Origin: a virus
Lineage: Duplodnaviria > Heunggongvirae > Uroviricota > Caudoviricetes
Virus record (IMG/VR): IMGVR_UViG_2718218398_000011
Length of the DNA stretch: 37,380 bases
Direction: 5' to 3' (one strand)
A program made the position numbers and the translations under genes. Of this stretch, positions 1-29,541 are shown piece by piece; position 1 is the stretch's first letter, and the number at the start of each line of letters is the position of its first letter. Below the pieces are notes generated by a model that did no database searches, was not told the origin of the DNA, and saw nothing but the letters and a program-made list of their open reading frames with translations.

Positions 1-258
1 ATGCAAACCGTTATTTTTGGTCGTCCGGGTTGCCCTTACTGTGTGCGTGCAAAAGATCTGGCTGAGAAATTGAGCAATGAACGCGATGATTTCCAGTATC
101 AGTATGTAGATATTCGTGCGGAAGGGATCACTAAAGAAGATCTACAACAAAAGGCAGGTAAACCCGTAGAAACCGTGCCGCAGATTTTTGTCGATCAGCA
201 ACATATCGGCGGCTATACCGATTTTGCTGCATGGGTGAAAGAGAATCTGGACGCCTGA
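1..258 (+). CDS. grxA: glutaredoxin 1
   Basis: 85-aa translation has the CPYC active site and is near-identical to E. coli GrxA as I recall it. Confidence 0.95.
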   Translation: MQTVIFGRPGCPYCVRAKDLAEKLSNERDDFQYQYVDIRAEGITKEDLQQKAGKPVETVPQIFVDQQHIGGYTDFAAWVKENLDA

Positions 259-268
259 TCGTCTGACA

Positions 269-300
269 AGCCCTCGCATTGAGGGCTTTATTGATTTTTT
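269..300. terminator. hairpin plus T-run between convergent grxA and ybjM
   Basis: aagccctc-gcatt-gagggctt stem-loop followed by ttattgatttttt; sits at the ends of both genes. Confidence 0.5.
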
Positions 301-665
301 CTGTGCTGTGGTTTAAACAAACTACTGATAAATAAGAAACACAATGCCCCCAGCGCACACCAGAACACCGCACTTAATAACCATGCCAGCTCTTGCCAGA
401 ATGAGCGCGTCGGTGAAAAAAACAGCCGCATAATGAGCATCGAGCAGGGTGCCGCCAGCATTGCGCCAAACAGAGGTTTCAGGACTTCTCTACGATGTGA
501 AAAGAAGCTGGCAACTGCACCAGGAAGAATGAAAAATAGCAAACCGATTTCAGGATGCCCGGCAGCCCGAAAAGCGCCTTTCATGTGCGTCGCCAGAAAA
601 AGACACACCACAATGAAGAGGACAAAACAGCAGATTGCCCCCGCCCAACGTTGTTTATGTTTCAC
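288..665 (-). CDS. ybjM: inner membrane protein YbjM
   Basis: 125-aa hydrophobic ORF between grxA and ybjL, matching the K-12 gene order and length of YbjM; identity is from context and memory. Confidence 0.65.
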   Translation of the reverse strand: MKHKQRWAGAICCFVLFIVVCLFLATHMKGAFRAAGHPEIGLLFFILPGAVASFFSHRREVLKPLFGAMLAAPCSMLIMRLFFSPTRSFWQELAWLLSAVFWCALGALCFLFISSLFKPQHRKNQ

Positions 666-933
666 TCGTTCCTCCTGACACTGCGTCTATCGAACACATT
701 TTTCGCCAGTGTGGCGTTCAGTAAGATAAAGCCGCTTCGCATTCCATGCTAATATAGGCCAACGCAATTCATATAGCCGTTGATACCTAATGTGATTACA
801 CTAGTAAAATATATTGTTACTTTACTATCGTTTAGGTGCGCTGAATGAATCTGCGCCCTGAATTCTGGTAAAAACATTATCGTAAATTACCATTTCTTTC
901 AACAGCTTACTAGTAAACAAGAAGTTAGCCTCC

Positions 934-2619
934 GTGAATATAAACGTCGCCGAATTGTTAAATGGGAATTACATTCTGTTATTATTTGTGGTCCTCGCGC
1001 TTGGGCTATGTCTCGGGAAATTACGACTTGGTTCGATCCAACTGGGTAATTCCATTGGCGTTTTAGTCGTATCGCTGTTATTAGGCCAACAACATTTCAG
1101 CATTAACACCGACGCGCTTAATCTTGGCTTTATGCTGTTTATTTTCTGCGTCGGGGTCGAAGCCGGACCGAACTTTTTTTCCATTTTTTTTCGCGATGGG
1201 AAAAATTACCTAATGTTAGCACTGGTGATGGTTGGCAGTGCGCTGGTGATCGCCTTAGGGTTAGGTAAGCTGTTTGGCTGGGATATTGGCCTGACGGCCG
1301 GTATGTTAGCTGGCTCTATGACGTCGACACCGGTTCTGGTCGGTGCTGGCGATACACTGCGTCATTCCGGCATGGAAAGCAGGCAGCTCTCACTGGCACT
1401 GGATAATCTGAGCCTCGGGTATGCCTTAACCTATTTAATCGGTCTGGTGAGTTTGATTGTTGGTGCGCGTTACTTGCCGAAATTGCAGCATCAGGACTTA
1501 CAGACCAGCGCCCAGCAAATCGCCCGCGAACGTGGCCTGGACACTGATGCCAACCGTAAGGTTTATTTACCGGTGATCCGCGCCTACCGCGTCGGCCCGG
1601 AGCTGGTGGCCTGGACCGACGGCAAAAATCTGCGTGAACTGGGTATTTATCGACAAACTGGCTGCTACATTGAACGTATTCGACGTAACGGGATTCTGGC
1701 AAATCCAGACGGTGATGCGGTGCTACAAATGGGCGATGAAATAGCGTTGGTAGGCTATCCCGACGCCCACGCCCGACTCGATCCCAGCTTCCGTAACGGC
1801 AAAGAAGTTTTCGATCGTGACCTTCTCGACATGCGTATCGTCACTGAAGAAGTGGTCGTTAAAAACCATAACGCCGTTGGCAAACGTCTCGCACAACTGA
1901 AGTTGACCGATCACGGTTGCTTCCTTAACCGCGTCATTCGTAGCCAGATTGAGATGCCGATAGATGACAACGTCGTGCTTAACAAAGGTGACGTTTTACA
2001 AGTCAGCGGCGATGCCCGTCGCGTAAAAACCATCGCCGATCGCATCGGCTTTATCTCGATTCATAGCCAGGTCACTGACTTGCTGGCATTCTGCGCCTTC
2101 TTTGTTATTGGGCTGATGATCGGGATGATCACCTTCCAGTTCAGCACATTCAGTTTCGGCATGGGAAACGCTGCCGGGTTGTTATTCGCCGGAATTATGC
2201 TGGGATTTATGCGCGCTAACCACCCGACCTTCGGTTACATTCCGCAGGGTGCATTAAGCATGGTGAAAGAGTTCGGCTTAATGGTGTTTATGGCAGGCGT
2301 TGGTCTGAGCGCCGGTAGCGGTATTAATAACGGCCTGGGCGCGATTGGCGGTCAGATGTTGATTGCCGGATTGATTGTCAGTCTTGTGCCAGTGGTTATC
2401 TGTTTCTTGTTCGGTGCTTATGTATTGCGAATGAACCGCGCACTGTTGTTCGGCGCAATGATGGGCGCACGCACCTGCGCGCCGGCAATGGAGATCATCA
2501 GTGATACAGCTCGCAGTAACATCCCGGCGCTGGGCTATGCGGGCACCTATGCAATCGCCAACGTCCTGCTGACGCTGGCAGGGACAATCATCGTCATGGT
2601 ATGGCCAGGATTAGGATAA
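934..2619 (+). CDS. ybjL: putative transporter YbjL (AAE family, TrkA-C domains)
   Basis: 561-aa polytopic membrane protein with a central soluble region; length and context match E. coli YbjL. Confidence 0.9.
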
Positions 2620-2732
2620 AACTGAAGTTGCCCTGAAAATGAAATTTTTTTTGCACAACCGCAGAACTTTTCCGCAGGGCATCAGTCTTAATTAGTGCCA
2701 CTGCTTTTCTTTGATGTCCCCATTTTGTGGAG

Positions 2733-2855: not shown

Positions 2856-3074
2856 TCAAAGAGAGAGCGCCACCTGTCCTGATTTCATTGGATGCGGCTG
2901 AACCGGATTTGACTCTTTTGGCGTTGCAATCGAACGAACAAAAGTTTCATGGGTAACAAAAGTATGGCTGCAGTTAATGTTCTGGCACTGGTTGTAACGC
3001 TCTTTGGTCAATGAAGATACCTGAAAACTGCTGCGAGTATGGGCGGCACTTCCACACAGTGGGCAAATCATCAT
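2856..3074 (-). CDS. ogr: Ogr/Delta zinc-finger late-gene activator
   Basis: CPLC...CQNINC C4 zinc finger; 72 aa from the ATG preceded by GGGAGA; resembles P2 Ogr. The track ORF starts further upstream at 3107. Confidence 0.85.
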   Translation of the reverse strand: MMICPLCGSAAHTRSSFQVSSLTKERYNQCQNINCSHTFVTHETFVRSIATPKESNPVQPHPMKSGQVALSL

Positions 3075-4265: not shown

Positions 4266-4747
4266 GACAGCAGCCCTCCCACCGTTTTACTGATATCGCT
4301 TAAGGCAGACGTTGCCGTGTCCTGCAGATTATTCAGTTGCGCACTGAGATCACCGAACATATCGGACAGGGATTCATCCACTCGTTTGAGCGACAGGGTG
4401 AACTCAATCCGGCGCGGCATACCGTCGCGGAAAAACTCCGTTTTAGTCTGATTCAGTCCCTCAATCACATACATGCCGTAAATCGTGCCGCTGCCTTCAA
4501 TCAGGGGCCATGCTTTCCCCTGTTCTGCCATCTGCTCCAGTGCCAGCAACGACAGCCTGCCGCCTGTTATTTCCGGCATAAGAACACCGGAAAGCGTCAG
4601 CATGTCGTTTTCCGGTCCCAGAAACTGCGTGGACGGACGTCGGTTTACCCGACTGTTTGCCGCATGTCGCCAGCTGCGTTGATACTGCAGTTCCTGATAC
4701 GGAACGGTGCGCAGCATAAACACGTACAATCCCAGCACCATCATCAT
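4262..4747 (-). CDS. U: tail protein U
   Basis: 161 aa, P2 gpU-like; start overlaps the T gene stop. Confidence 0.85.
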   Translation of the reverse strand: MMMVLGLYVFMLRTVPYQELQYQRSWRHAANSRVNRRPSTQFLGPENDMLTLSGVLMPEITGGRLSLLALEQMAEQGKAWPLIEGSGTIYGMYVIEGLNQTKTEFFRDGMPRRIEFTLSLKRVDESLSDMFGDLSAQLNNLQDTATSALSDISKTVGGLLS

Positions 4748-7700
4748 GCGTCGTATCCCCCCTGATCGCTGTAGTTACTCCTGGCTTTTGCCTTCAGCCT
4801 GCGTTCACGTTCATCAAGCTGGCGTGCCACCTCCCGCGCAATATCCTGCGCACTTTGTCCTGGCTGCGTCTGAATGATGATCTGCGTCGGTGCCTCAATC
4901 CGTTGAACGAGCGGCACAGTGGCTGCGCGACTCACAATTGCTTCTCCACCTTTCGCGGGAAGTGCCAAGGGGTGCAACGGTGGAAGCTCTGCTGGCGCGG
5001 CAGCAACGCCCATCATTCCGGCAACAACGGCAGCCAGTGCAGCTGTATTTCTCCGGCTGGTCACATTTGCCGGGCCGTTAACAATTTCCGGTCCGTTTTC
5101 ACCGACGATGCCAAACTGCCCGCGCGGGATATACCCGCCGCTGTCATACATCCCCGCAAAGCCATATCCCCATGATGGAAAACCACCCGATGGCATCATC
5201 ACTTTACCGTCTGCATTCACCGTCGCAGGTTGCTGACGCGTCACGCTTTCCGGCAGTTTTGCCTTTGCGGCCTCTTTACTGACAATGCCGAGCTTCTCCA
5301 GCAACCAGGAAACGCCGGATTTCAGGGAGTCCAGCGGATGCATGACCATATTCAGCCCTTCCGCCAGTGCCTCCCCGAATCGCCGCCCCATTGCCGCTGC
5401 GCTCTGCAGTTCGGCAGAGGTCGACTTAACGGGCGTCAGCAGATCAGTAAACCAGCCCCACAGCGCCTGCACTTTGTCGCCAATCCACTGGAACACGGGC
5501 TTAAGCGGTTCGAACGCTGCACTGATGGGACCTGCCGCCGCTTTGAATCCTTCCACCACGCCACCGAGAAATGCGGTGATGGGTTGCCAGTATTTCCAGA
5601 CAACCAGCGCCACGCCCGCCAGTGCAGTAACCACAAGACCTATCGGACTGAGCAGAGCACCTAACAGACCAGATATGGCATACAGGGCAACGCGCAGCAT
5701 CGCCAGTGGACCAGATGCCAGTACTCGCAGCACCGTGCCTGCGGCGGCCAGTCCACCGCGCAGTACCGCCAGAGGATTCATAAACATCACAGCAACAGCA
5801 CGTAAACCGGATAATCCAGACCGCAAAAGTGCAACTGGCGCACCTGCTACAGTTTTCAGGACATTTCCCGTCAGTGATGCCGTGCGGCGCAAAGACGACA
5901 ACGGCGCAGTAAGTAAACCTGCGGCGTTGCCCGATGAAGCAAGCCCGCGTCGCAGCAGTGCCAGTGGAGCGCCAGCCAACCAGGACAACGCGTTGCTGGT
6001 TCGAGTTACTGCTGCCATAACGGAAGGTAACGTTTTGATACCCAGCACAGAGAATCCCAGACGGATCACTGCCAGCGGCCCCAGCACTGCAGCCATCGCC
6101 ACCGCTAAGGTGCCTAGGCCGACGGTAACCGCAGCCACAACAGCCGATGCTTTCATCAGTGTGCCTGTCAGTTCCGGGTTAGCTTCCACCCAGCGACGCA
6201 ACGCCCCCGTGACGCTTTTCACCGTGTACAGAATATCCATCAGCGGCTGGCGCAGCGTTTCGCCCAGACTGCTGAAGGTGTTCTGCGCTCCGGTTTTGAC
6301 CAGCAACCACTGCGCAGAAAGTGAATCCTTGTTAATGTCGGATTCTTTCTGCATGGAGCCGAGCGCATCATTGCCCGCTGTCAGTTTTAACTGACGCTGC
6401 AGTTCCGGCAGGTTGTTTGCCAGTTTCGCCGCATCATCGCCAAACTCTTTACCAAACAACATAGTCATGGCAGACAGGCGCTTGTCCTGCGGCAGCGCGT
6501 TTACCTTCTCCAGCACGCGCTGGATGGTTCCCATCGCATCCTTCGTCATCTGCTTTTCAATCACTTCAGGATTGAGTTTCAGCAGATTCATCCCTTCAAA
6601 GAAACTCTTGCTTTGCATGGTGGCAATGGACAATTCACGCACCATCGCGTTTGCTGCACTGGCTGCAACCTCTGGCGCAGCGCCCAGTGTCAGGAAGGTG
6701 GAACCCAGCGCCGCCGCTTTACGATAATCCAGACGGTCAGCCACACCGCCCAGACGTTGCATCACATCAATGATGTCTGCCCCTTTCGACATGGCGTTAT
6801 CATCCAGATAGTTCAGCGCATCGCCGAGCTGTTCAATATTGCGGGTGGGGATTTTGTAGAGCTGGGCGATTTTCCCCAGACTTTCTGACAGTTCATCCGC
6901 TGGCAGCTCAAAGGCTGTTGCCGCCTTTGCTGCCGTACTGGCGAAGGCCAGCAGGTCACGTTTCTGATCTTCCCAACTGTCGTCAGGGTTTGCGACGTTC
7001 ATGCGCGCACCACCTTCAACCAGTGCAGCGAAATCCACCGCACCGTTTTCCATCGGCAACTGTTCGCTGGCAGCCTTGATGGCATCCTGCATTTCATAAA
7101 AACGTGCAGTGCGGTTGCCATTATCGTCACGCAGACCATTGACCTGCTTTGCCACACCTTTCATGGCATCTTCCATGCTGGTATAGCTTTTTACTGCCGC
7201 CATCACTGGTGCGCCCATTGCCAGCCCTGCAGCCGTGGTGGTGGCTCCGGCACCTGCAATACGATCACGCACCTCCAGCGAACGGGCATAACTGGCACGC
7301 GCTGCATTCATCCTGCGCTGAGCTTCCCCCAGTCGCTTCAGCCGCGCCTCCTGTTTCGAAAGTTCCTGGTTATAACGTGATGTTTCACGGGCTAAACGGG
7401 CAGTTGCTCCCGCATCGTCTTTCGCAGAAATTCCCGCCCGGTACAGTTCAGCACGCACAAGCGCCGTCTGCTGCTGCAGCTTTTTCTGGCGTTCTTCCAG
7501 GCGCTGAACAGCCAGCCGTTGACGGCCCAGAGCAACAACCTGACGTTGCGAAGGCGGCCCCATCGCTCCCAGTTCCTGACTGAGCAAATTTGCACGCTGG
7601 CGGGCATAGTTCAGCCTGTCGCCTAATTTCTGATTTTCTGCCTGCAGCTTTCGGAAGCTGTCCAGACTGCTCCCGGCCTGATCAAGCTGCTTTATTGCAT

Positions 7701-7821
7701 CGCGGGATTTTTTGACAGCAGCAGCCAGTTCTCTTGAACTGGCCTGCGCAGATCGAAATGGGCGGGTAAGCTTGTCAACCGCATTAAGAATGACCTGCAG
7801 ACGCAGGTTGTTATCACTCAT
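4744..7821 (-). CDS. T: tail tape measure protein
   Basis: 1025 aa, N-terminal coiled-coil and Ala/Gly/Leu-rich repeats typical of tape measure proteins; position after E/E'. Confidence 0.9.
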   Translation of the reverse strand: MSDNNLRLQVILNAVDKLTRPFRSAQASSRELAAAVKKSRDAIKQLDQAGSSLDSFRKLQAENQKLGDRLNYARQRANLLSQELGAMGPPSQRQVVALGRQRLAVQRLEERQKKLQQQTALVRAELYRAGISAKDDAGATARLARETSRYNQELSKQEARLKRLGEAQRRMNAARASYARSLEVRDRIAGAGATTTAAGLAMGAPVMAAVKSYTSMEDAMKGVAKQVNGLRDDNGNRTARFYEMQDAIKAASEQLPMENGAVDFAALVEGGARMNVANPDDSWEDQKRDLLAFASTAAKAATAFELPADELSESLGKIAQLYKIPTRNIEQLGDALNYLDDNAMSKGADIIDVMQRLGGVADRLDYRKAAALGSTFLTLGAAPEVAASAANAMVRELSIATMQSKSFFEGMNLLKLNPEVIEKQMTKDAMGTIQRVLEKVNALPQDKRLSAMTMLFGKEFGDDAAKLANNLPELQRQLKLTAGNDALGSMQKESDINKDSLSAQWLLVKTGAQNTFSSLGETLRQPLMDILYTVKSVTGALRRWVEANPELTGTLMKASAVVAAVTVGLGTLAVAMAAVLGPLAVIRLGFSVLGIKTLPSVMAAVTRTSNALSWLAGAPLALLRRGLASSGNAAGLLTAPLSSLRRTASLTGNVLKTVAGAPVALLRSGLSGLRAVAVMFMNPLAVLRGGLAAAGTVLRVLASGPLAMLRVALYAISGLLGALLSPIGLVVTALAGVALVVWKYWQPITAFLGGVVEGFKAAAGPISAAFEPLKPVFQWIGDKVQALWGWFTDLLTPVKSTSAELQSAAAMGRRFGEALAEGLNMVMHPLDSLKSGVSWLLEKLGIVSKEAAKAKLPESVTRQQPATVNADGKVMMPSGGFPSWGYGFAGMYDSGGYIPRGQFGIVGENGPEIVNGPANVTSRRNTAALAAVVAGMMGVAAAPAELPPLHPLALPAKGGEAIVSRAATVPLVQRIEAPTQIIIQTQPGQSAQDIAREVARQLDERERRLKAKARSNYSDQGGYDA

Positions 7822-8250
7822 CGTTGGCCCCGCTTCTCTGAATCGCTTTATACCGCCATTCCAGCACTTCGGTCAGCGGCATAACGTCAGTAACGGATGG
7901 CGGCCAGTGAAAAATGGTGGCGATATCTGCCACCAGATCGTCAACCGTCAGGCTGTCGGTAAACCGGCAAGCACCGACTTCTTCAACAAAAAAGTGACAA
8001 CCTCAACCGACATGGCAGTGAGATCTGCCGGGTCCATCTCTGCAATTTCCTGTGCAGTCAGTGCCGGACTGGAGATGCGGGGGATCACGGTCATCATCGC
8101 GTTTACATCCATATCCATAATGGCCTGCAGGCGTGTACCGCGCAGCGCACCGGACTGCGGTTTACGCAGCACAATTTCGGTGATTTCTGTTTTACCGCGC
8201 TTGATGGGGGTATCCAGTTGAATGGTCTTTTCAGTCTGCTTATCGCTCAT
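7814..8250 (-). CDS. tail assembly chaperone E+E' (programmed -1 frameshift product)
   Basis: Slippery heptamer T TTT TTG on the minus strand at about 7987..7993; the -1 frame stays open for about 58 codons to a TGA at 7814..7816, overlapping the T start. Confidence 0.55.
7948..8250 (-). CDS. E: tail assembly chaperone E
   Basis: 100-aa ORF ending VTFLLKKSVLAGLPTA; P2 gpE-like, between FII and T. Confidence 0.8.
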   Translation of the reverse strand: MSDKQTEKTIQLDTPIKRGKTEITEIVLRKPQSGALRGTRLQAIMDMDVNAMMTVIPRISSPALTAQEIAEMDPADLTAMSVEVVTFLLKKSVLAGLPTA

Positions 8251-8304: not shown

Positions 8305-8820
8305 TCAGAGGCCGAGGGCGTTGCGGTGCGCTTCCATCAGGTCCACACCGTCCACAATTTCCACCATGTTGATAAGGTCCACTTCATAGAGCACCTCACC
8401 ATTGATGGTCAGCTTCGCGTAGCTGTTGGTACTGGTCACTTTGGTGGTGTTGCTTTCGCCCGTCTTCCACTCGCCGGAATCCACTTCTTTGTGACGTCCA
8501 CGCACGACAAGCTCCACGGCCTGCACTTCCCCGGTATCGTCACGCTGAATAGAGCCGGTAAAGCGCAGCTGGATGCCATCCACCGTGGCTTTACCCATCT
8601 GTTTAAACAGCAGCAATTCAGTACCACCAATGGAAAATTCTGTGTCCAGCGCACTGTCATCAAGCCCCAGATCCACATCCACCGCACCCGGCATTCCGCC
8701 GCCGCGATACTTCTCATATTTGCGGGTAAATTTCGGCAGCGTCAGCGACTCAACGATCCCCTGCCAGTTGTTCCCGTCGTTAAACAGGTTCAGGTGTTTT
8801 AATTTGCGTGGTAAAGCCAT
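8305..8820 (-). CDS. FII: tail tube protein FII
   Basis: 171 aa, P2 FII-like. Confidence 0.9.
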   Translation of the reverse strand: MALPRKLKHLNLFNDGNNWQGIVESLTLPKFTRKYEKYRGGGMPGAVDVDLGLDDSALDTEFSIGGTELLLFKQMGKATVDGIQLRFTGSIQRDDTGEVQAVELVVRGRHKEVDSGEWKTGESNTTKVTSTNSYAKLTINGEVLYEVDLINMVEIVDGVDLMEAHRNALGL

Positions 8821-10078: not shown

Positions 10079-10096
10079 TGTGTCGTTATTCACACA
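10079..10096. promoter_or_regulatory. candidate Ogr-dependent late promoter element (PF-like)
   Basis: TTGTGT-N8-ACACAA dyad (TGT-N12-ACA core), about 85 bp upstream of the FI start. Confidence 0.45.
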
Positions 10097-10144: not shown

Positions 10145-10717
10145 TCAGGGGGATTCATTGATCTTATTTGCCGGAAATTTTCTATAAATGGTAGAAACGC
10201 CTACATCAAAAATCAGTGCAATACGCTGTCTTGATTCTCCGGCCTCGAGTAAACGCCCAATCTGTGCCCACTGTTCGGTGGTCAACTTAGGACGGCGTCC
10301 ACCTACTCTGCCTTTGGCACGAGCTGCAGCCAGCCCTGCCCTGGTACGTTCAACTATCAGTTCGCGTTCCATTTCAGCCAGGGCACCCATGACATGAAAA
10401 AAGAAACGGCCCATTGGGGTACTGGTATCAATACTGTCAGTCAGGCTTCTGAAATTCACACCACGCTGGCGCAACTCTTCTATCAGCGTAACAAGATGCC
10501 GCATACTGCGCCCCAACCTGTCCAGCTTCCAGACAACCAGCGTGTCTCCTGCCGATAGTGTCCTGAGTAGTTTTTTCAGCCCCGGTCTGTCGGACTTAGT
10601 GCCACTGATTTTGTCCTCAAAAATCCGCTCACATCCCGCGCAGTTCAGTGCATTACGTTGCAAATCGGTGTTCTGGTCATTTGTTGACACGCGTACATAG
10701 CCAATAAGCATGATCAT
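10145..10717 (-). CDS. serine DNA invertase (Hin/Gin/Pin/Cin family)
   Basis: N-terminal GYVRVSTNDQ serine-recombinase motif and C-terminal HTH; 190 aa; adjacent to an inverted-repeat crossover site. Confidence 0.9.
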   Translation of the reverse strand: MIMLIGYVRVSTNDQNTDLQRNALNCAGCERIFEDKISGTKSDRPGLKKLLRTLSAGDTLVVWKLDRLGRSMRHLVTLIEELRQRGVNFRSLTDSIDTSTPMGRFFFHVMGALAEMERELIVERTRAGLAAARAKGRVGGRRPKLTTEQWAQIGRLLEAGESRQRIALIFDVGVSTIYRKFPANKINESP

Positions 10718-10766
10718 CCCCCTGAATAAAAACCGGAGATGATGCCAGTTAGCTGTTACCTCTGCA

Positions 10767-10794
10767 TTTTCTTAAACGTTGGTTTGGGAGAAGC
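10767..10794. repeat. inversion site, left (gix/hix-like)
   Basis: TTCTTAAACG-TT-GGTTTGGGAGAA; the inner half and core are the exact inverse of the site at 12623..12650. Confidence 0.6.
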
Positions 10795-11113
10795 GGCAAA
10801 ACGGAATGTGGGAACAGGGGAAAATCAGATACCTGATATGTCAGCTTATTCATCAGGATCTGGCTGGCAAAAATTGCCTGATGGTTCAATTGAACAGTGG
10901 GGAAGAATTAATTTCCCGAATAACGCCGCGGCGGTATCTACAAATGTGACTTTCACCATTCCTTTTACGCAGGAGCCAGACGTAGTGATTGTATATGACG
11001 GCGGTTTTGGTGGTGGGAATATGTGGGGCGCAACTAACTGGACGAAAACAGGTTTCGTTGCTCATTGTAACTATGGCTTTGAAGGTGGAGCCTTCTACGC
11101 GAAAGGGCGTTAA
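10781..11113 (+). CDS. alternative tail-fibre C-terminal exon (silent in this orientation)
   Basis: Open frame runs through the left site with the same GGT TTG GGA GAA (GLGE) codons as gene H at the right site; no independent start expected. Confidence 0.55.
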   Translation, partial: GLGEAAKRNVGTGENQIPDMSAYSSGSGWQKLPDGSIEQWGRINFPNNAAAVSTNVTFTIPFTQEPDVVIVYDGGFGGGNMWGATNWTKTGFVAHCNYGFEGGAFYAKGR

Positions 11114-11115
11114 TT

Positions 11116-11556
11116 ATGAAATATTTGTATGTTGATAATCTGGCGTACCCTTATGCCCTCCAGTCTGTTTACGCTGCAAAAGGCCAATGGCCCGAAGGTA
11201 AAGGCGTGGATATAGACGAAGCTATTTTCAGGGAATATTTCCATGATACGCCGCCTGACGGTAAGTACAGAATTACCGGAGACGATGGAATGCCAGCATG
11301 GGCAGATGTTCCACCGCCAACACGTGAAGAACAAATTGCATCAGCCGAAACTAAAAAGCAGCAATTGATTAATCAGGCCAACGATTATATGAACAGTAGA
11401 CAATGGGCTGGTAAAGCGGCTATTGGTCGTCTGAAAGGTGAGGAACTGGCGCAATATAATTTGTGGCTGGATTATCTGGACGCACTGGAGCTGGTCGATA
11501 CTTCCAGTGCACCAGATATTGAATGGCCTACTCCTCCGGCAGTTCAGGCCAGATGA
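11116..11556 (+). CDS. tail fibre assembly protein (alternative)
   Basis: 146 aa; C-terminus (WLDYLDAL...APDIEWP) resembles the Tfa on the opposite strand. Confidence 0.7.
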   Translation: MKYLYVDNLAYPYALQSVYAAKGQWPEGKGVDIDEAIFREYFHDTPPDGKYRITGDDGMPAWADVPPPTREEQIASAETKKQQLINQANDYMNSRQWAGKAAIGRLKGEELAQYNLWLDYLDALELVDTSSAPDIEWPTPPAVQAR

Positions 11557-12130
11557 CATCCGGCGCGGTGCTGATATCTGTTGCCGTCACCGCGTCAATG
11601 TAATCCAGCACAGCGTTAAGCCGGGTTGTTTCTGCCTGCGTCAGTTTCCGCCCGGCCTGTAATTTCAGTTGAATCAGACTAATGGAAGCCATTGCAGTAT
11701 CAATCAGTGACTGACGCTGTGCTTCTGCCGCGTCTACTGCGGCGCGATGCTGTGCCTCAGTATCGGTCACCCATTTCTCACCATCCCATTTATCGTATGG
11801 CGTTAATGGGGCGATAGTGGTTGTATTTTCGGGGTAATCACCCGGAGTTGTGATTTCTTTGGTGTCTCCCGTTTCGGTGTTATAGACGATTTCACCGCGA
11901 TGGTCTGGCACATATTCCCATGAGTTTAAATCTGCCGAACGGCAGATTGCATAACCAGCCTTATGTATACCAGGTTCATCCAGACAGGAATATGCCGGGA
12001 TACCAACACCAACGGCAAGATATTCATTTGAAGTGGAAATATATTCCCGAGTTTCACCATCATAGCTATAGACGGTAATATTCCCCGCCTTCGTGGCAAT
12101 AAGCTCGCTATTTAATACAGCGTTATCCAT
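11528..12130 (-). CDS. tail fibre assembly protein
   Basis: 200 aa, directly downstream of H; conserved Tfa C-terminus (LDYIDAV...APDVIWP). Confidence 0.8.
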   Translation of the reverse strand: MDNAVLNSELIATKAGNITVYSYDGETREYISTSNEYLAVGVGIPAYSCLDEPGIHKAGYAICRSADLNSWEYVPDHRGEIVYNTETGDTKEITTPGDYPENTTTIAPLTPYDKWDGEKWVTDTEAQHRAAVDAAEAQRQSLIDTAMASISLIQLKLQAGRKLTQAETTRLNAVLDYIDAVTATDISTAPDVIWPELPEE

Positions 12131-13686
12131 TATGCAGCTCTCACAATATAATTAAATGACGTATTACGTGGTCGTACTGATATCCATGCACTATAAAAAC
12201 CGTCTTCTGCTGTTCTCTGCGTTCCCGTAATGGAGTTATCAGACGAAGCTGGAACATAGTTACTGCTGTCGCCAGCTTTAGAATTAGCAGGTATCCCGCT
12301 TGTTTGTACTTTATCGGCGGAAGCAAATGCTATCCCCACCTTGACAGAGGTTGTTGTATCAACCCCGTAATAATCCTGTAACGCTGTACGAATAAAAGTT
12401 GCATCCTGACCACTGAGTAGTGATCGTCCACTGTCTACACCGCGTCCATCATCCCAGCCACGAATAAACTCACCGCGTAAATCAGGCAATTTATTTGTCG
12501 GGTAAGCCTTTGCCAGTTCCGGGTATTCTTCAGCAGAAAAAGCTGCACCATTGCATTTCAACCAGCCTGTCGGTGGTGTAGCTGAAGGCCACGGAACAGG
12601 CACACCAACCGGTAATGCTGAACCTTCTCCCAAACCAAGGTATGCGAGAAGACCAGCAACATCCTTTCCACTCAAATTAGTCAGCGTATTGTCCAGCGGT
12701 TGTTTACCTGCCAGTGCATTAAGCATTGTCGTGGCAAAGTTCGGGTCATTCCCCAGCGCCGCCGCCAGTTCGTTCAGTGTATCCAGTGCCGCAGGTGCAG
12801 AACCCACCATTGCCGCAATCGCCGATTTCACAAATGCCGTGGTGGCAATCTGTGTATTGTTGACCGACTGTGCCGCAGTCGGTGCGGTTGGCGTTCCGGT
12901 GAGTGCCGGACTCGACAGCGGCGCTTTCAGTGCCAGCGCATTGTTAATGGTGGTACTGAATTTCGGATCATTGTTAATGGCTACGGCTATTTCTTTCAGC
13001 GTGTCCAGCGTGGCTGGCGCATCATTAATAAGAGCCGTCAGTGCCGCCTGAACAAATGCGGTGGTCGCAACCTGCGTGGTGTTATTCCCCGTCGCTGGCG
13101 TTGGCGCTTTGGGTGTCCCGGTAAACGTAGGACTTTCTTTGGCTGCATACTGTGAATGCGGGTCCGGTGCGGCAAGATGTTTTGCCATCTGATCATCCGC
13201 GTACACCTTCAGCTCCAGTGCCTTGTCATCCACATACTTGCGGGTTGCCAGCACTACAGCAGGGTCGATTTTCAGGGTGATATTGTCCGTGCTGCTGGTA
13301 ATCAGCACCATGCGCACGGTCTGGGTACGCCCGCTGCCTTCAGCCAGTTGCGGCTTATAGCTTTCCGGGCAGTTGCCCACGGCAATCAATGCCCCTGACT
13401 CATCAAACAGGCCCACTTCACGTATCCACCAACCGCCCTCGTTTTCAGGGATCACCTGTTCAGCAATAATCTGGCTGCTGTTCTGTGGGTCGATATAGAG
13501 CATATTCAGCGCAGCCCGACGTTTCTCATTTACCAGTGCACTCTGCTTTGCGTCCGGCGTCGGCAATGTTCCGCCACCATCGCCCACCGCCATATGGGTA
13601 ATTTTTAGCGGCACACCGAGCGCGGCGGCGCTGGCAAGTTTCGCCGCGCCAATATCCGTCAGCAGGGTATAAAATTTTGTGCTCAT
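12130..13686 (-). CDS. H: tail fibre protein H (constant N-terminus plus currently fused variable C-terminus)
   Basis: 518 aa, P2 gpH-like N-terminus with repeat-rich shaft; the inversion site lies inside the codons for LGLGEG. Confidence 0.9.
   Translation of the reverse strand: MSTKFYTLLTDIGAAKLASAAALGVPLKITHMAVGDGGGTLPTPDAKQSALVNEKRRAALNMLYIDPQNSSQIIAEQVIPENEGGWWIREVGLFDESGALIAVGNCPESYKPQLAEGSGRTQTVRMVLITSSTDNITLKIDPAVVLATRKYVDDKALELKVYADDQMAKHLAAPDPHSQYAAKESPTFTGTPKAPTPATGNNTTQVATTAFVQAALTALINDAPATLDTLKEIAVAINNDPKFSTTINNALALKAPLSSPALTGTPTAPTAAQSVNNTQIATTAFVKSAIAAMVGSAPAALDTLNELAAALGNDPNFATTMLNALAGKQPLDNTLTNLSGKDVAGLLAYLGLGEGSALPVGVPVPWPSATPPTGWLKCNGAAFSAEEYPELAKAYPTNKLPDLRGEFIRGWDDGRGVDSGRSLLSGQDATFIRTALQDYYGVDTTTSVKVGIAFASADKVQTSGIPANSKAGDSSNYVPASSDNSITGTQRTAEDGFYSAWISVRPRNTSFNYIVRAA
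12623..12650. repeat. inversion site, right (gix/hix-like), inside gene H
   Basis: TTCTCCCAAACC-AA-GGTATGCGAGAA; the inner half is the reverse complement of the left site's inner half. Confidence 0.6.
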
Positions 13687-19423: not shown

Positions 19424-20074
19424 TCAGCGGCTGTCATTGCGCAGTCTGCGCTCCAGCTGCTGTTTGTCTTTTTTCACGCCACAGCGGGGATCGAGCTGTA
19501 ACGCATGGTTGAGATGATTAAGGGCGGACGCCGGATTGTTTTCACTCAGGACAGCGCCAATCGCTTTATGCAGACGCGCCCGTGACTGGTCCGGCATATC
19601 CATACCGTCTGTCAGCTCCAGCGTCTGCAGCAACAGATCGGCATCAAAGCCGGTGGCGGCAAGCATTGCGCTCTGGGCTGCATCTGCCATTTCCTCTGCC
19701 AGCACGGTCTGCACGTTGCGGTTACCCAGCGGCATCACCCAGCCATGACGCAGGGCATGACGCCCGATCTCCAGCGCCCCGGCATAATCTCCGGCATCAA
19801 TGCGCCACAGCATCACGTACATCAGCACGTCATCCTGTTGAGCGCCTCCGGCAGCCAGGACACCCTCTGCCCAGGCGGCGTACTTCGGCAGCAGCTCCAC
19901 CTTGATTTCCGCTTTTTTGACCGTGGACTGAACGCCCTTGAGACGGCGGCGGTCTTCCGCCAGTTGCAGCAGCATCAGGTCATAGCCCGACGCGTGGCGA
20001 ACACTGCCGCCCTCGCGGGCGGCCTGTTCAGCCTGAACGCGCAGGCGATGCTGCCGTGCGGGACTCAGGCTCAT
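19424..20074 (-). CDS. M: terminase endonuclease (small) subunit M
   Basis: 216 aa, P2 gpM-like. Confidence 0.85.
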   Translation of the reverse strand: MSLSPARQHRLRVQAEQAAREGGSVRHASGYDLMLLQLAEDRRRLKGVQSTVKKAEIKVELLPKYAAWAEGVLAAGGAQQDDVLMYVMLWRIDAGDYAGALEIGRHALRHGWVMPLGNRNVQTVLAEEMADAAQSAMLAATGFDADLLLQTLELTDGMDMPDQSRARLHKAIGAVLSENNPASALNHLNHALQLDPRCGVKKDKQQLERRLRNDSR

Positions 20075-23895: not shown

Positions 23896-24923
23896 TGGGA
23901 AAGAGTAAGAAGAACCGCGCTGTGTCGACGAACCAGATTCAGCACAAAAGCCAGACTTCAGCCGAAGCATTCAGCTTTGGCGATCCCGTTCCTGTTCTGG
24001 ACCGCCGCGAACTGCTGGACTATGTAGAATGCGTACAGACAGATCGCTGGTATGAGCCGCCAGTGAGTTTTGACGGACTGGCGCGAACCTTCCGCGCTGC
24101 CGTGCATCACAGTTCACCAATTGCGGTGAAATGCAACATTCTGACCAGTACCTACATCCCTCACCCGCTTCTCAGCCAGCAGGCTTTTTCACGTTTTGTG
24201 CAGGACTATCTGGTATTTGGTAACGCTTACCTGGAGAAACGCACGAACCGGTTCGGTGAAGTTATCGCCCTTGAGCCTGCTCTGGCAAAATACACCCGAC
24301 GTGGGTTAGACCTGGATACCTACTGGTTTGTGCAATACGGTATGACAACCCAGCCGTATCAGTTCACGAAAGGCAGCATTTTTCATCTGATGGAGCCGGA
24401 CATCAACCAGGAGATCTACGGCCTGCCCGGCTATCTTTCTGCCATTCCATCCGCCCTGCTCAACGAGTCCGCCACGCTGTTCCGCCGTAAGTATTACATC
24501 AACGGCAGCCATGCAGGCTTCATCATGTACATGACCGACGCCGCGCAGAATCAGGAGGATGTGAACAACCTCCGCAACGCGATGAAAAGTGCCAAAGGTC
24601 CAGGCAACTTCCGCAACCTGTTTATGTACTCGCCTAACGGCAAAAAAGACGGGCTTCAGATCATCCCATTGTCAGAAGTCGCGGCGAAGGATGAATTTCT
24701 TAACATCAAGAACGTAAGTCGGGATGACATGATGGCGGCGCATCGTGTGCCGCCGCAGATGATGGGGATAATGCCAAACAATGTTGGGGGGTTTGGGGAT
24801 ATAGAAAAAGCCAGTTGCGTTTTTGTGCGAAATGAGTTAACTCCTTTACAAAAAAGACTTGTAGAAATTAATATTTGGCTAAAGAAAAAAATAATAGCCT
24901 TCAAAGATTATTCATTGAATTAG
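23892..24923 (+). CDS. Q: portal protein Q
   Basis: 343 aa, P2 gpQ-like; the last ~30 codons are AT-rich. Confidence 0.9.
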   Translation: MMGKSKKNRAVSTNQIQHKSQTSAEAFSFGDPVPVLDRRELLDYVECVQTDRWYEPPVSFDGLARTFRAAVHHSSPIAVKCNILTSTYIPHPLLSQQAFSRFVQDYLVFGNAYLEKRTNRFGEVIALEPALAKYTRRGLDLDTYWFVQYGMTTQPYQFTKGSIFHLMEPDINQEIYGLPGYLSAIPSALLNESATLFRRKYYINGSHAGFIMYMTDAAQNQEDVNNLRNAMKSAKGPGNFRNLFMYSPNGKKDGLQIIPLSEVAAKDEFLNIKNVSRDDMMAAHRVPPQMMGIMPNNVGGFGDIEKASCVFVRNELTPLQKRLVEINIWLKKKIIAFKDYSLN

Positions 24924-24934
24924 ATAAAATGTGT

Positions 24935-24952
24935 GGGGGATGAAAATCCCCC
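24935..24952. terminator. hairpin between convergent Q and the KAP NTPase gene
   Basis: gggggat-gaaa-atccccc, a 7-bp G/C stem with a GAAA loop in a 35-bp intergenic gap. Confidence 0.4.
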
Positions 24953-24957
24953 CCAAA

Positions 24958-26610
24958 TTACAAATACCGTCTAACACGTATTTTATTAATGCTCGACTCA
25001 TTTCCAATTCTTATCAAAGCATTTCTCGCTTTTTCTCCGATGCGTTTCATTCTTTCTGAACCATTGCTATACCCACCAAACTTAAGAGCAGTAGCTATTA
25101 TTGAATCACCACCATCAAGAATGACTTTTTTAAATAAATCATAGTAGTCATCCTCTGAGGCAGCATCCAATATTTCCTCGTGCCTATCAGACCAACCATT
25201 CTGACTTGATAATTTTATTAGAACATCCTTTATAGAACCATCCAGATTTAAAGTAGTAGAATAATCTTGGATTTTTGACTTTAACTCAGCATCTTTTATA
25301 GGATGAACATTCATGTAAATAGATTGAACATATTCCTTAAGAGCATCATTGCCGTAATTAATAAATTTACTTATTAATTCACTTGCTTTAATATTTTCAC
25401 CTAAATCTCTATACAGTCCGACAACACTATCCAAGTCACTTGGAGTTACATACTCTATCCCACCAACCACCGCTTGATATAGATTATCAATAACCTGATT
25501 TCGGTTATCTTCAAATGAATTATAGAAAAGCTTCCATGCTTCAAACAGTGAACCTCGCTTACTATCACGGATAAGTTCATCATTCCTTAGACTTACTTGC
25601 CTTTGGAAATTGTTCATATCAATATATCCATGCCTTACCATGTCTATAAGGACTTCATCAAGTTCGTTTGTTTTTTTATAATCATATATAAGCAAAGTAT
25701 TAAGCCATTTTTTTTCTTTTCCATCCTCTTTTTCATCACGCATATAGATATTTCTCATATTTCTAATATACTCCAATGATGGTACATCTCCATCTGGAGT
25801 AAATGCGTAATGACTCCAACAATACAAAGTTAAGGAGTGTGCGACTTCATTTGCAATTTTTTCAAAATTAACGTTAATGCCAGGTAACAAGGCTAGCAAA
25901 AACCGCTCTATTTTTTTCAGTATCCTAATATTCTTAATACCCAGGGAAATGGAGTATTTGCTTAATAATTTATGAACATCAGAATTATTTTTATATGCTA
26001 TAACTGCACATTCTTCTGGAGTAGGATTATAGGTAATCTCTCTATCAATAACCTTTTCTTTATAAGTGGAGTAGTCATCCATACCACTTGTCCCGTTATT
26101 AAGTAAAAGAACCACCTTACAATTTTTTTGTTCTTTCAATAAAGAAACCAACCCTAAGACATCTTTCACTTCTAAATTTTTACCACGTCTTTCTAAGTCA
26201 TCTATGACTACAATAACATTAGTAATTGACATAAATGACATTGACTCAAGTGTCGTAGTGAAATTTTTCAAAAAAGGTGTATCTTTTAACACACGAGCGG
26301 TCTTTCTAGTGCAGGATTCAAGAAGCCCCTTTGCATTTTGTGTTGCTGTTTTTAAATTAGGTTTGTTTCCAATGAAATCTTTCGTAATTGTATTTTCAAA
26401 GATGGAGTATTTTAATGCGTCCAATGAATTAACACCAAAAAGAGAGACGTAACTATATCTATTAAATGCAATCTTATTTTTATTTTCCTTTAAGAAAGCA
26501 TTCCAAGTATAGGTTTTCCCAATCCCCCACTCACCCTGAATAGCCATTACCTCAGGTTCTGCAGATGAAATAAAGTCTGACAACTGTTCTTTAATATAGT
26601 CTAATGACAT
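24958..26610 (-). CDS. KAP-family P-loop NTPase (cargo; candidate anti-phage protein)
   Basis: Walker A GEWGIGKT and Walker B VVIDDLERR in KAP-type arrangement; start placed at MSLDYIKEQL, which has GGAGA six nt upstream (track ORF starts at 26640); strongly AT-rich. Confidence 0.7.
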   Translation of the reverse strand: MSLDYIKEQLSDFISSAEPEVMAIQGEWGIGKTYTWNAFLKENKNKIAFNRYSYVSLFGVNSLDALKYSIFENTITKDFIGNKPNLKTATQNAKGLLESCTRKTARVLKDTPFLKNFTTTLESMSFMSITNVIVVIDDLERRGKNLEVKDVLGLVSLLKEQKNCKVVLLLNNGTSGMDDYSTYKEKVIDREITYNPTPEECAVIAYKNNSDVHKLLSKYSISLGIKNIRILKKIERFLLALLPGINVNFEKIANEVAHSLTLYCWSHYAFTPDGDVPSLEYIRNMRNIYMRDEKEDGKEKKWLNTLLIYDYKKTNELDEVLIDMVRHGYIDMNNFQRQVSLRNDELIRDSKRGSLFEAWKLFYNSFEDNRNQVIDNLYQAVVGGIEYVTPSDLDSVVGLYRDLGENIKASELISKFINYGNDALKEYVQSIYMNVHPIKDAELKSKIQDYSTTLNLDGSIKDVLIKLSSQNGWSDRHEEILDAASEDDYYDLFKKVILDGGDSIIATALKFGGYSNGSERMKRIGEKARNALIRIGNESSINKIRVRRYL

Positions 26611-26670
26611 GTACATTCTCCGAGATAGATAGTCATCCATATTATAACCCGAGTACTATCAAAGTAATAA

Positions 26671-26696
26671 GCGCGCGCTCGTATCCCCGCCACGCC
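26671..26696 (-). other. candidate cos site (cohesive-end region)
   Basis: Minus strand reads GGCGTGGCGGGGATACGAG CGCGCGC, resembling the P2/186 cohesive end as I remember it (GGCG[A/T]GGCGGGGAAAGCA.. followed by GCGCGC); a G-rich block in an AT-rich island at the expected map position. Confidence 0.4.
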
Positions 26697-27039
26697 TGCC
26701 CGCTTTATGTAGTGGTTTTCATGCACCTGCACGACATAAGCAAAAGCACGCCAGTTCTGGCTGGCCTCAGCAAAAACGATCCTCTAACGATCATGCGATC
26801 TCATGCGTCATAGTCATGCACAGCCAAGGGAAGCGTAAATCCGTATCTGAATGACCGCTGAAAAGCTAATCATACGGGTTTACAAAGATGAAAGTCCGCT
26901 GTGAGCGAAAAGCGGATATTCCCATTGTTTTATCTTGATCTAGTAAAAACAATACCCCCTTTACAAACAAAAATAATGAGTTACTATTTTCAGCTCCTTT
27001 TAACCCAAAGGTTTATAATTAAAAAGGAATGGCATACCG

Positions 27040-27693: not shown

Positions 27694-27793
27694 ATACGAT
27701 AACATCTCAGTTTGTTATTGGTCTATTTTTGAAAACAGCTATCGATGATATTAGTCTGTTCTTCGTCAATTAATATGCAATCCATTCATGACA

Positions 27794-27815
27794 CAGGGCT
27801 GCTGTTACAGCCCTG
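27794..27815. terminator. hairpin between the convergent HEPN-like and Abi_C-like genes
   Basis: cagggctg-ctgtta-cagccctg, a perfect 8-bp stem. Confidence 0.35.
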
Positions 27816-27942
27816 ACAACCTTAGACTTCAATCGATTCAGAGATCTCTAACGCATCATCACCCGTTGAACTCACAGCGATAAGTAGACGCTGGCGGCAA
27901 CACAGAAGTGTAGCGGGAATTTGAACCACATAATTTGGTTTG

Positions 27943-29531: not shown

Positions 29532-29541
29532 AAAAGTCACC

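What the first reader, a model, noticed from the sequence alone, without database searches (positions are those of the whole stretch)
7814..8250. Conserved programmed -1 frameshift producing E+E' tail chaperone
A T TTT TTG slippery heptamer lies near the end of gene E. I translated the -1 frame from it by hand and it stays open for about 58 codons, ending at a TGA that overlaps the tape-measure start, giving an E+E' product of about 145 aa as in P2.
Basis: partly seen in the sequence, partly recalled or inferred. Interest (0 to 1): 0.4.

Follow-up and report, generated by a model that had tools for sequence, protein, structure and literature searches.

The report
P2-type E/E+E' tail chaperone frameshift

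Summary
Gene E (8250..7948, 100 aa) contains an in-phase T TTT TTG heptamer (7993..7987). From it the -1 frame stays open for 57 sense codons, up to a TGA (7816..7814) that overlaps the tape-measure ATG (7821..7819). The predicted E+E' product is 145 aa.

The -1 extension is real coding sequence. It matches Pfam Phage_P2_GpE (E = 2.9e-18). The fusion aligns without gaps across the junction with P2 gpE+E' (49% identity, E = 4e-51). Variable sites among relatives fall on third positions of the -1 frame.

In 78 of 79 complete loci from different bacterial species, and in 10 diverse phage records, E' lies in the -1 frame with an in-phase X XXY YYZ heptamer in the short two-frame overlap. The heptamer is mostly T TTT TTG, but also G GGA AAG and C CCT TTC.

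The P2 record annotates this exact site as a -1 frameshift, and the Fels-2 record notes it. The DNA is 100% identical to prophages in several E. coli genomes. Verdict: already known, low interest.

The only mildly new points are side observations. One is a synonymously conserved Shine-Dalgarno-like GAGGTG 2-5 nt upstream of the heptamer, which is an atypical spacing. The other is that RefSeq annotates E' as a separate 39-aa gene.

The parts
7948..8250 (-). Gene E: zero-frame tail assembly chaperone, 100 aa
   Evidence: ORF. Pfam PF10109 Phage_TAC_7, E = 1e-18. RefSeq names it 'phage tail assembly protein' WP_001281009.1. Variable sites among 45 distinct close relatives by codon position are 8/4/42.
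7987..7993 (-). Slippery heptamer T TTT TTG (X XXY YYZ) in phase with E. tRNA-Phe sits on UUU in the P site and tRNA-Leu on UUG in the A site.
   Evidence: P2 has the same sequence in the same phase, and its record marks the frameshift there. The heptamer is conserved in 78 of 79 genome loci (74 TTTTTTG, 4 TTTTTTA). The codon before TTT ends in T in 82 of 82 distinct contexts, although its amino acid varies.
7814..7987 (-). E' reading frame (-1 relative to E): 57 sense codons plus TGA, read only as an extension of E. Together with 8250..7987 it gives the 145-aa E+E' product.
   Evidence: Translation. Pfam PF06528 Phage_P2_GpE on residues 107-143 of the fusion, E = 2.9e-18. Third-position bias in the -1 frame is 8/3/14 after the E stop and 1/1/5 in the overlap. 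BLASTP against P2 E+E' gives 49% identity, no gaps, E = 4e-51.
7948..8002 (-). The 55-nt stretch in which both frames are open, the only place where a -1 shift can join E to E'. The -1 frame is closed by a stop 9 nt upstream of the heptamer.
   Evidence: window row: -1 frame open from locus position 559, E stop at 611. The corresponding stretch in P2 is 37 nt.
7814..7933 (-). The part of E' that RefSeq/PGAP annotates as a free-standing 39-aa 'GpE family phage tail protein', starting at GTG 7933. This is most likely an annotation convention and not a real start.
   Evidence: Read directly from the sequence, there is no GGAG/GAGG/AGGA in the 20 nt upstream. In homologues the equivalent codon is Met, Val, Ile or Trp (alignment), so a start codon is not conserved there. 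The -1 frame is conserved at protein level upstream of it (VEEVGA.. against VAELGA..).
4744..7821 (-). Tape-measure gene T. Its ATG (7821..7819) overlaps the E' stop within ATGAGTGA.
   Evidence: Pfam PhageMin_Tail, E = 2e-18. P2 has the same overlap, AATGAGTAA.
8305..8820 (-). Tail tube gene FII, immediately upstream of E
   Evidence: Pfam Phage_tube, E = 8.8e-60.
7999..8003 (-). Weak Shine-Dalgarno-like GAGGT, 5 nt upstream of the heptamer. Most relatives have GAGGTG(GTC) here.
   Evidence: This is a side observation and its function is unknown.

Best explanation
This is the E / E+E' recoding site of a P2-family (Fels-2-like, Felsduovirus-type) prophage. The late tail operon mRNA (sheath, tube, E, T, U, D) is translated from the E start at 8250. 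Most ribosomes stop at TGA 7950..7948 and make the 100-aa gpE. A minority slip while tRNA-Phe and tRNA-Leu occupy UUU UUG of U UUU UUG. Both tRNAs slip back one base onto UUU UUU. The next codon read is then GUU at 7987, and translation continues for 57 more codons to TGA 7816..7814. This gives the 145-aa gpE+E', which shares its first 88 residues with gpE.

By analogy with lambda gpG/gpGT, the two proteins act as tail assembly chaperones. The shared E domain would coat the tape-measure protein encoded by the next gene. The E' domain would recruit tube subunits. The fixed low shift rate would set their ratio.

Shown here: the sequence anatomy, the homology of both parts, and the conservation of the frame relation and of the heptamer. 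Inferred from P2 experiments: that the shift occurs, at roughly 10% as I recall, and that both products are essential. Inferred by analogy with lambda: the chaperone mechanism.
For: Anatomy.

Domain matches on both sides of the shift: Phage_TAC_7 and Phage_P2_GpE, each about 1e-18.

Gene order sheath-tube-E-T-U-D-ogr as in P2.

Gapless alignment with P2 gpE+E' through the junction.

The P2 record annotates E+E' as a two-piece join, 'shares amino terminus with gpE; -1 frameshift; essential tail protein', with the shift placed at the homologous TTTTTTG. The Fels-2 and PSP3 records say the same. PMC3091744 states that in P2 the -1 shift occurs at TTTTTTG and gives products of 91 and 142 aa.

Conservation: tblastn of the fusion finds 425 phage records, 388 of them covering at least 80% of the query; the 56 such records among the 60 listed each match in two pieces. 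Ten diverse phage records all have E' in the -1 frame with an in-phase heptamer in the overlap. These include the non-homopolymeric G GGA AAG and C CCT TTC. 78 of 79 species genomes show the same arrangement. The wobble base of the preceding codon is T in 82 of 82 contexts.

Codon-position substitution patterns switch frame at the heptamer.

Lambda G/GT mechanism: PMC5009743.
Against: There is no direct evidence of shifting for this prophage. No conserved downstream RNA structure was found, and the local hairpin is only marginally better than shuffles (z = -2.1). The efficiency therefore cannot be predicted. The upstream Shine-Dalgarno-like element sits 2-5 nt from the heptamer, not the 9-14 nt reported as stimulatory for -1 shifts (PMC5009743). 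A GTG at 7933 could in principle start a separate 39-aa E', and this is how RefSeq annotates it. The chaperone mechanism has not been demonstrated for P2 gpE, as far as I could find in the held literature.
Confidence: 0.93

Rival explanations
1. The same E+E' protein is made, but by transcriptional slippage. RNA polymerase would add one extra U in the T6 run, and standard translation of the edited mRNA would then join E to E'. The junction would read ...TFFVEE... instead of ...TFLVEE....
For: The shift site is a homopolymer (T6). Some relatives carry T7 (CCTTTTTTTG; Zymomonas TTTTTTT). Slippage on long A/T runs is documented in bacteria (PMC5009743).
Against: The review describes efficient slippage on runs of about 9, and T6 is short. 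Homologues use G GGA AAG (Mannheimia) and C CCT TTC (Klebsiella ST16-OXA48phi5.4) at the same place. These are tandem-slippage heptamers and not homopolymers. The run is in the X XXY YYZ phase in all 82 contexts, and T TTT TTA is tolerated. Phase does not matter for polymerase slippage.
Confidence: 0.04
2. E' is an independent small gene: a 39-aa product started at GTG 7933, as annotated by PGAP and in phage RE-2010. No recoding would be involved.
For: RefSeq annotates WP_000763311.1 'GpE family phage tail protein' at 7933..7814. RE-2010 and several other records do likewise.
Against: There is no Shine-Dalgarno motif upstream of GTG 7933 (sequence). The equivalent codon is Ile in Mannheimia and Trp in Vibrio phage MAR, so a start there is not conserved. 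The -1 frame is open and conserved at protein level for 18 codons upstream of that GTG, back to the heptamer and no further. Substitutions in the dual-coding stretch spare the -1 frame. The P2 record marks the -1 frameshift site and calls E+E' an essential tail protein that shares its amino terminus with gpE.
Confidence: 0.02
3. The open -1 frame and the heptamer are coincidental, or a relic in a defective prophage, and no E+E' is made.
For: TTTTTTG is common in the window (21 copies). A 57-codon open frame arises in 7% of shuffles.
Against: There is a Pfam match of 65.5 bits in the -1 frame, family-wide conservation and purifying-selection patterns. The prophage carries an intact full set of P2-type genes. 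It is 99.8% identical in this region to the records named Escherichia phage 500465-1 and 99.7% to Klebsiella phage KP12.
Confidence: 0.01

Closest known systems
Bacteriophage P2 gpE / gpE+E' (genes E and E' of the FETUD tail operon; NC_001895 P2p26/P2p25; Christie et al. 2002, J Bacteriol 184:6522, cited in PMC3091744)
   Same: The heptamer T TTT TTG is the same and in the same phase. The position between FII and T is the same, and the E' stop likewise overlaps the T start. The fusion is collinear (49% identity over 139 aa, no gaps). The sizes are similar (145 against 142 aa).
   Different: The zero-frame tail after the shift site is longer (12 codons against 6), so E is 100 aa against 91. The E' stop is TGA, not TAA. 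The upstream Shine-Dalgarno-like element is weaker (GAGGTT against AAGGTGGT). The lineage is different: Felsduovirus-like, about 86% nucleotide identity to Fels-2, against Peduovirus for P2.
Fels-2 STM2699 / STM2697.1 (Salmonella; NC_010463), and near-identical E. coli prophages and phage 500465-1
   Same: Nucleotide identity is 86% to Fels-2, 99.8% to Escherichia phage 500465-1 and 100% to prophages of E. coli MS 115-1, ECONIH4 and others. The Fels-2 record already notes 'forms functional gpE+E' if translational slippage occurs'.
   Different: Nothing of substance differs at this locus. The cargo genes elsewhere in the prophage differ.
Phage lambda gpG / gpGT tail assembly chaperones (Levin et al. 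1993; Xu, Hendrix and Duda 2004, 2013, 2014, as summarised in PMC5009743)
   Same: The logic is the same: two proteins sharing an N-terminus, made by a low-frequency -1 shift near the end of the gene that lies between the major tail or tube gene and the tape-measure gene. The ratio of the two products matters for tail assembly.
   Different: I found no detectable sequence similarity. The Pfam families differ, and the P2 family matches Phage_TAC_7 and Phage_P2_GpE. The lambda heptamer is G GGA AAG. Lambda has a non-contractile tail, whereas this one is contractile.
E. coli dnaX -1 frameshift (A AAA AAG with 5' Shine-Dalgarno and 3' hairpin stimulators)
   Same: Both are tandem -1 slippage on an X XXY YYZ heptamer in the same host, with a Shine-Dalgarno-like sequence nearby on the 5' side.
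   Different: The dnaX Shine-Dalgarno sequence lies 10 nt upstream, and 9-14 nt is the reported stimulatory range. Here it lies 2-5 nt upstream. There is no conserved 3' hairpin. The expected efficiency is low rather than about 50%.

Membership tests
P2-family gpE / gpE+E' programmed -1 frameshift | The gene lies between the tail tube gene (FII) and the tape-measure gene (T) in the late tail operon | tested here: met
   Tube 8305..8820 (Phage_tube, 8.8e-60), E 7948..8250 and T 4744..7821 (PhageMin_Tail) are all on the minus strand.
P2-family gpE / gpE+E' programmed -1 frameshift | The zero-frame product is homologous to gpE (Phage_TAC_7) | tested here: met
   PF10109, E = 1e-18, 67.5 bits against a cut-off of 25.
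P2-family gpE / gpE+E' programmed -1 frameshift | The -1 frame extension is homologous to E' (Phage_P2_GpE) | tested here: met
   PF06528, E = 2.9e-18, 65.5 bits against a cut-off of 23, full profile 1-37. The alignment with P2 is collinear.
P2-family gpE / gpE+E' programmed -1 frameshift | An in-phase X XXY YYZ slippery heptamer lies inside the stretch where both frames are open | tested here: met
   T TTT TTG at 7993..7987, within a 55-nt overlap. P2 has the identical site.
P2-family gpE / gpE+E' programmed -1 frameshift | E' has no translation initiation site of its own | tested here: inconclusive
   There is no ATG in the -1 frame. The first canonical start is GTG 7933, which has no Shine-Dalgarno motif and is not conserved as a start in homologues. 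PGAP nevertheless calls a CDS there. Sequence alone cannot exclude weak initiation.
P2-family gpE / gpE+E' programmed -1 frameshift | The fusion protein is actually produced (about 10% in P2, from memory) and both products are essential | not testable with these tools
   This needs protein analysis or genetics. It is known for P2 only (record notes; PMC3091744).
Lambda G/GT-type tail assembly chaperone pair (Xu et al. 2004 class) | Two overlapping ORFs lie upstream of the tape-measure gene and are joined by a conserved -1 shift, giving a shared N-terminus | tested here: met
Lambda G/GT-type tail assembly chaperone pair (Xu et al. 2004 class) | The shared domain binds the tape-measure protein, the extension binds the tube protein, and neither product is in the virion | not testable with these tools
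   No structure prediction was possible.

The most novel reading that the evidence does not exclude
The frameshift itself is not new. The most novel reading left open is that the strongly anti-SD-complementary element, kept at synonymous sites (GAG GTG GTC / AAG GTG ATC) only 2-5 nt upstream of the heptamer in most enterobacterial P2-family phages, is a functional modulator of this -1 shift. It could act as an attenuator or a pause site at a spacing outside the 9-14 nt window known to stimulate -1 shifts. On this reading, the GAG GTT variant in the window would shift at a different rate.
Probability: 0.25. Interest if true: 0.35.

Novelty: already known. Interest (0 to 1): 0.08.

Why it matters
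It matters little for discovery. This is a textbook recoding event, already annotated in the P2, PSP3 and Fels-2 records, and it sits in a prophage found in about a fifth of complete E. coli genomes (998 of 5426). The practical value lies in annotation. RefSeq splits E' off as a separate 39-aa gene in these genomes, so the real 145-aa product is missing from the RefSeq and phage records examined here. The conserved Shine-Dalgarno-like element next to the heptamer could be a small addition to what is known about how frameshift efficiency is tuned in bacteria.

Tried and rejected
- **Downstream RNA stimulator.** Folding of the 87 nt 3' of the heptamer gives a hairpin starting 8 nt downstream, but only z = -2.1. 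The consensus fold over 7 diverse relatives is essentially empty at -1.16 kcal/mol. I rejected it as a family feature, in agreement with PMC3091744.
- **Heptamer rarity as evidence.** TTTTTTG alone is common in the window, so it was not used as evidence by itself.
- **L006 and L126.** The in-frame E-E' fusion in contig L006 (a T8 run) was considered as a natural 'no frameshift needed' variant. Eight other contigs with identical flanks have T7, so it is a singleton and probably a homopolymer error. L126 (Ca. Symbiopectobacterium) is fused by a deletion and looks like decay.
- **Structure.** A PDB sequence search found nothing. I ran no further search on a known feature.
- **Christie et al. 2002.** The paper (PMC135442) is not held. 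Statements about the 10% efficiency and about complementation are from memory, from the P2 record notes and from PMC3091744.
- **Invertible tail-fibre segment.** The repeat finder did not reveal its crossover sites.

Full report
**1. What is in the sequence**

The genes in this part of the window run on the minus strand.
- An ORF of 100 aa runs from ATG 8250 to TGA 7950..7948.
- The 1025-aa ORF downstream of it starts at ATG 7821.
- The two are separated by 126 nt that look non-coding in the zero frame.
- Reading the minus strand shows ...GTC ACT TTT TTG TTG AAG..., so the heptamer T TTT TTG (7993..7987) is in the X XXY YYZ phase of the upstream ORF, 12 codons before its stop.
- The -1 frame is closed by a stop 9 nt upstream of the heptamer. 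It is then open for 57 sense codons from G7987 to TGA 7816..7814. That stop sits inside ATGAGTGA and so overlaps the start of the downstream ORF.
- The predicted fusion is 88 + 57 = 145 aa.

The only omission is that the feature is on the minus strand.

**2. Is it more than chance?**

The heptamer by itself is not informative. TTTTTTG occurs 21 times in the window, against 11 expected. Two other statistics are more useful.
- In-phase X XXY YYZ heptamers occur at 0.002 per codon in 37 CDSs of the window. That gives 0.036 expected in the 18-codon stretch where both frames are open.
- A 57-codon frame of this composition stays open in 7% of shuffles.

The decisive evidence is homology.
- The zero-frame protein matches Pfam Phage_TAC_7 ('tail assembly chaperone proteins E, or 41 or 14'), E = 1e-18.
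- Residues 107-143 of the fusion, encoded only in the -1 frame, match the whole Phage_P2_GpE profile, E = 2.9e-18.
- The neighbours are a Phage_tube protein upstream and a PhageMin_Tail tape-measure protein downstream.

**3. Where the window comes from**

- The 621 nt around the site are 100% identical to prophages in six listed E. coli chromosomes, including MS 115-1 and ECONIH4. Matches occur in 998 of 5426 complete E. coli genomes.
- The same stretch is 99.8% identical to 'Escherichia phage 500465-1' and about 86% identical to Salmonella phage Fels-2 and to RE-2010, which its record places in the genus Felsduovirus.
- The annotation of the MS 115-1 copy shows a complete P2-type prophage next to ybjL. 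It carries ogr, D, U, T, E', E, tube, sheath, tail-fibre, baseplate, lysis, head, replication, repressor and integrase genes.
- The window is collinear with that copy except in the tail-fibre tip and in a cargo region at 24838..29541.

**4. Comparison with P2 and other relatives**

- The P2 reference record annotates E (19430..19705) and E+E' as a two-piece join. Its note reads 'shares amino terminus with gpE; -1 frameshift; essential tail protein', and it carries a feature 'site of -1 translational frameshift'.
- The P2 sequence there is GGT TTT TTG, the same heptamer in the same phase, and the E' stop again overlaps the T start (AATGAGTAA).
- The window fusion aligns with P2 gpE+E' at 49% identity over 139 residues, without a gap through the junction (VVTFLVEEVGA against VVGFLVAELGA), E = 4e-51.
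- The PSP3 and Fels-2 records describe the same frameshift.
- PMC3091744 states that in P2 the -1 shift occurs at TTTTTTG, giving products of 91 and 142 aa. It also states that Burkholderia P2-like phages conserve the site and that no downstream hairpin is found.

**5. Breadth of conservation**

- tblastn of the fusion finds 425 phage records. 388 of them cover at least 80% of the query, and the 56 such records among the 60 listed each match in two pieces.
- Ten diverse phage records were examined: P2, Fels-2, ENT90, PSP3, a Burkholderia phage, phiCTX, a Klebsiella Reipivirus, a Mannheimia phage, Vibrio phage MAR and a Zymomonas plasmid-prophage. In all ten, as in the window, E' is in the -1 frame and an in-phase heptamer lies in the two-frame overlap.
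- Counting the window with those ten, the heptamers are T TTT TTG (7), T TTT TTC, T TTT TTT, G GGA AAG and C CCT TTC.
- A scan of one genome per species gave 80 loci, mostly Enterobacterales. Of the 79 that were complete, 78 have E' in the -1 frame, with T TTT TTG (74) or T TTT TTA (4).
- The exception is a Candidatus Symbiopectobacterium locus, in which a deletion just 5' of the T run fuses the frames.
- Across 82 distinct contexts, the codon preceding TTT encodes N, T, G, S or Y but always ends in T. This is selection on the nucleotide that forms the first X of the heptamer.
- Among 45 distinct close relatives, the variable sites by codon position are as follows:

| Region | Frame counted | Positions 1/2/3 |
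|---|---|---|
| Upstream of the heptamer | zero | 8/4/42 |
| 36-nt dual-coding stretch | -1 | 1/1/5 |
| After the E stop | -1 | 8/3/14 |

The constrained frame therefore switches at the heptamer.

**6. Mechanism**

The best-supported reading is tandem -1 ribosomal slippage. tRNA-Phe on UUU (P site) and tRNA-Leu on UUG (A site) re-pair with UUU UUU. Translation resumes at GUU 7987 and gives ...VVTFL-VEEVGACRF....

The non-homopolymeric heptamers in homologues (G GGA AAG, C CCT TTC) and the strict phase argue for the ribosomal route over polymerase slippage. Slippage is described as efficient on runs of about 9. It cannot be excluded as a minor contributor on T6.

A separate start for E' at GTG 7933, as annotated by PGAP, is unlikely for four reasons.
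- There is no Shine-Dalgarno motif upstream.
- The codon is Ile or Trp in some homologues.
- The -1 frame is conserved as protein upstream of it, back to the heptamer.
- The P2 record marks the -1 frameshift site and calls E+E' an essential tail protein sharing its amino terminus with gpE. From memory of Christie et al. 2002, E' was shown there to be made as an extension of gpE.

Function as a pair of tail assembly chaperones rests on the Pfam family name and on analogy with lambda gpG/gpGT. In lambda, the shared domain binds the tape-measure protein, the extension binds the tube subunit, and the ratio of the two is critical (PMC5009743). That step is inference.

**7. Stimulatory elements**

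No conserved 3' structure exists. The window and Fels-2 share a local hairpin 8 nt downstream, but its z-score is only -2.1.

Upstream there is an unexpected signal. In about 60 of 71 distinct contexts, the 9-mers ending 0-6 nt before the heptamer pair with the 3' tail of 16S rRNA at mean energies of -9 to -11 kcal/mol. The background is -2.1.
- The usual sequence is GAG GTG GTC (E V V).
- Glu is GAG in 69 contexts against GAA in 2. The first Val is GTG in 63 of 72.
- A Val two codons further upstream uses all four codons freely.
- The window itself carries the rarer, weaker GAG GTT.
- The spacing of 2-5 nt is not the 9-14 nt reported to stimulate -1 shifts. It is nearer the 3 nt used for +1 shifts (PMC5009743).

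The role of this element, if any, is unclear. The sequences are related to one another, so the counts are not independent. I did not find this element discussed in the papers I could read.

**8. Verdict**

The feature is already known: a member of the P2 gpE/gpE+E' recoding family in a common E. coli prophage. Interest is low.

Noticed in passing
window 7814..7933 (-): RefSeq/PGAP annotates E' as a free-standing 39-aa 'GpE family phage tail protein' starting at GTG 7933 instead of a frameshifted join. The RE-2010 and Burkholderia phage records do the same. Only the P2 and PSP3 records carry the join. The true 145-aa product is therefore missing from the RefSeq and phage records examined here.
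   Followed up: partly
window 7994..8008 (-); relatives L095-L174, L003, L005, L086-L089: A Shine-Dalgarno-like element (GAG GTG GTC, AAG GTG ATC) lies 2-5 nt upstream of the heptamer. Its mean duplex energy with the 16S tail is -9 to -11 kcal/mol, against -2.1 background. GAG and GTG are kept at synonymous sites, whereas a nearby Val codon varies freely. The spacing does not fit the known -1 stimulatory range. The window has the weaker GAG GTT.
   Followed up: partly
L006 1720..1740 (same contig as L177, IMGVR_UViG_2734481921_000002): A run of 8 T (CCTTTTTTTTG) puts E and E' in one continuous frame, so no frameshift is needed and no short E is made. Eight other contigs with identical flanks have 7 T and the normal arrangement. 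This is probably a homopolymer sequencing error, and otherwise a private mutation.
   Followed up: yes
L126 around 838 (Candidatus Symbiopectobacterium, NZ_PEHF01000066.1): E and E' are fused in one frame by a short deletion just 5' of the T6 run. This is the only one of 79 species loci without the -1 arrangement. It looks like gene decay in a symbiont.
   Followed up: partly
window 7948..7986 (-): In the 36-nt stretch read in both frames, 5 of 7 variable sites among close relatives fall on third positions of the -1 frame, which are second positions of E. The last 12 residues of E therefore seem less constrained than the start of E'.
   Followed up: partly
window 7947..7978 (-): A local hairpin (GUCGGUGCUUGCCGGUUUACCGACAGCCUGAC) starts 8 nt 3' of the heptamer. 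Fels-2 shares it but more distant relatives do not. The z-score is only -2.1.
   Followed up: yes
window 24838..29541: This cargo region next to the portal gene differs from the otherwise collinear MS 115-1 prophage. It encodes a 560-aa KAP-family P-loop NTPase (24958..26640, minus strand) that matches the PADLOC candidate defence family PDC-S49 (E = 2e-25). It also holds a 217-aa ORF (27040..27693, plus strand) with a weak RTasHEPN hit, and two ORFs with no match. It may be an anti-phage hotspot cargo.
   Followed up: partly
window 10079..10096 (-): A TGT-N12-ACA dyad is centred about 85 nt upstream of the sheath ATG (10002). From my knowledge of P2, this is the spacing and sequence type of Ogr-activated late promoters. 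The P2 record marks an activator site at the equivalent place. It is likely the promoter of the operon containing E/E'.
   Followed up: no
window 10145..11556: A serine recombinase gene (10145..10717, minus strand) sits beside oppositely oriented tail-fibre tip and tail-fibre assembly ORFs (10739..11113 and 11116..11556, plus strand). These face the expressed fibre and assembly genes (11528..13686, minus strand). The arrangement resembles a Gin/Cin-type invertible host-range segment. I did not find the crossover repeats.
   Followed up: partly
window 1..2700 and 36328..37380: The window spans host genes grxA, ybjM and ybjL and then a whole P2-type prophage, from ogr (2856..3074) to the integrase gene, which ends at the window edge. 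The integrase coordinates come from mapping onto the MS 115-1 annotation.
   Followed up: partly
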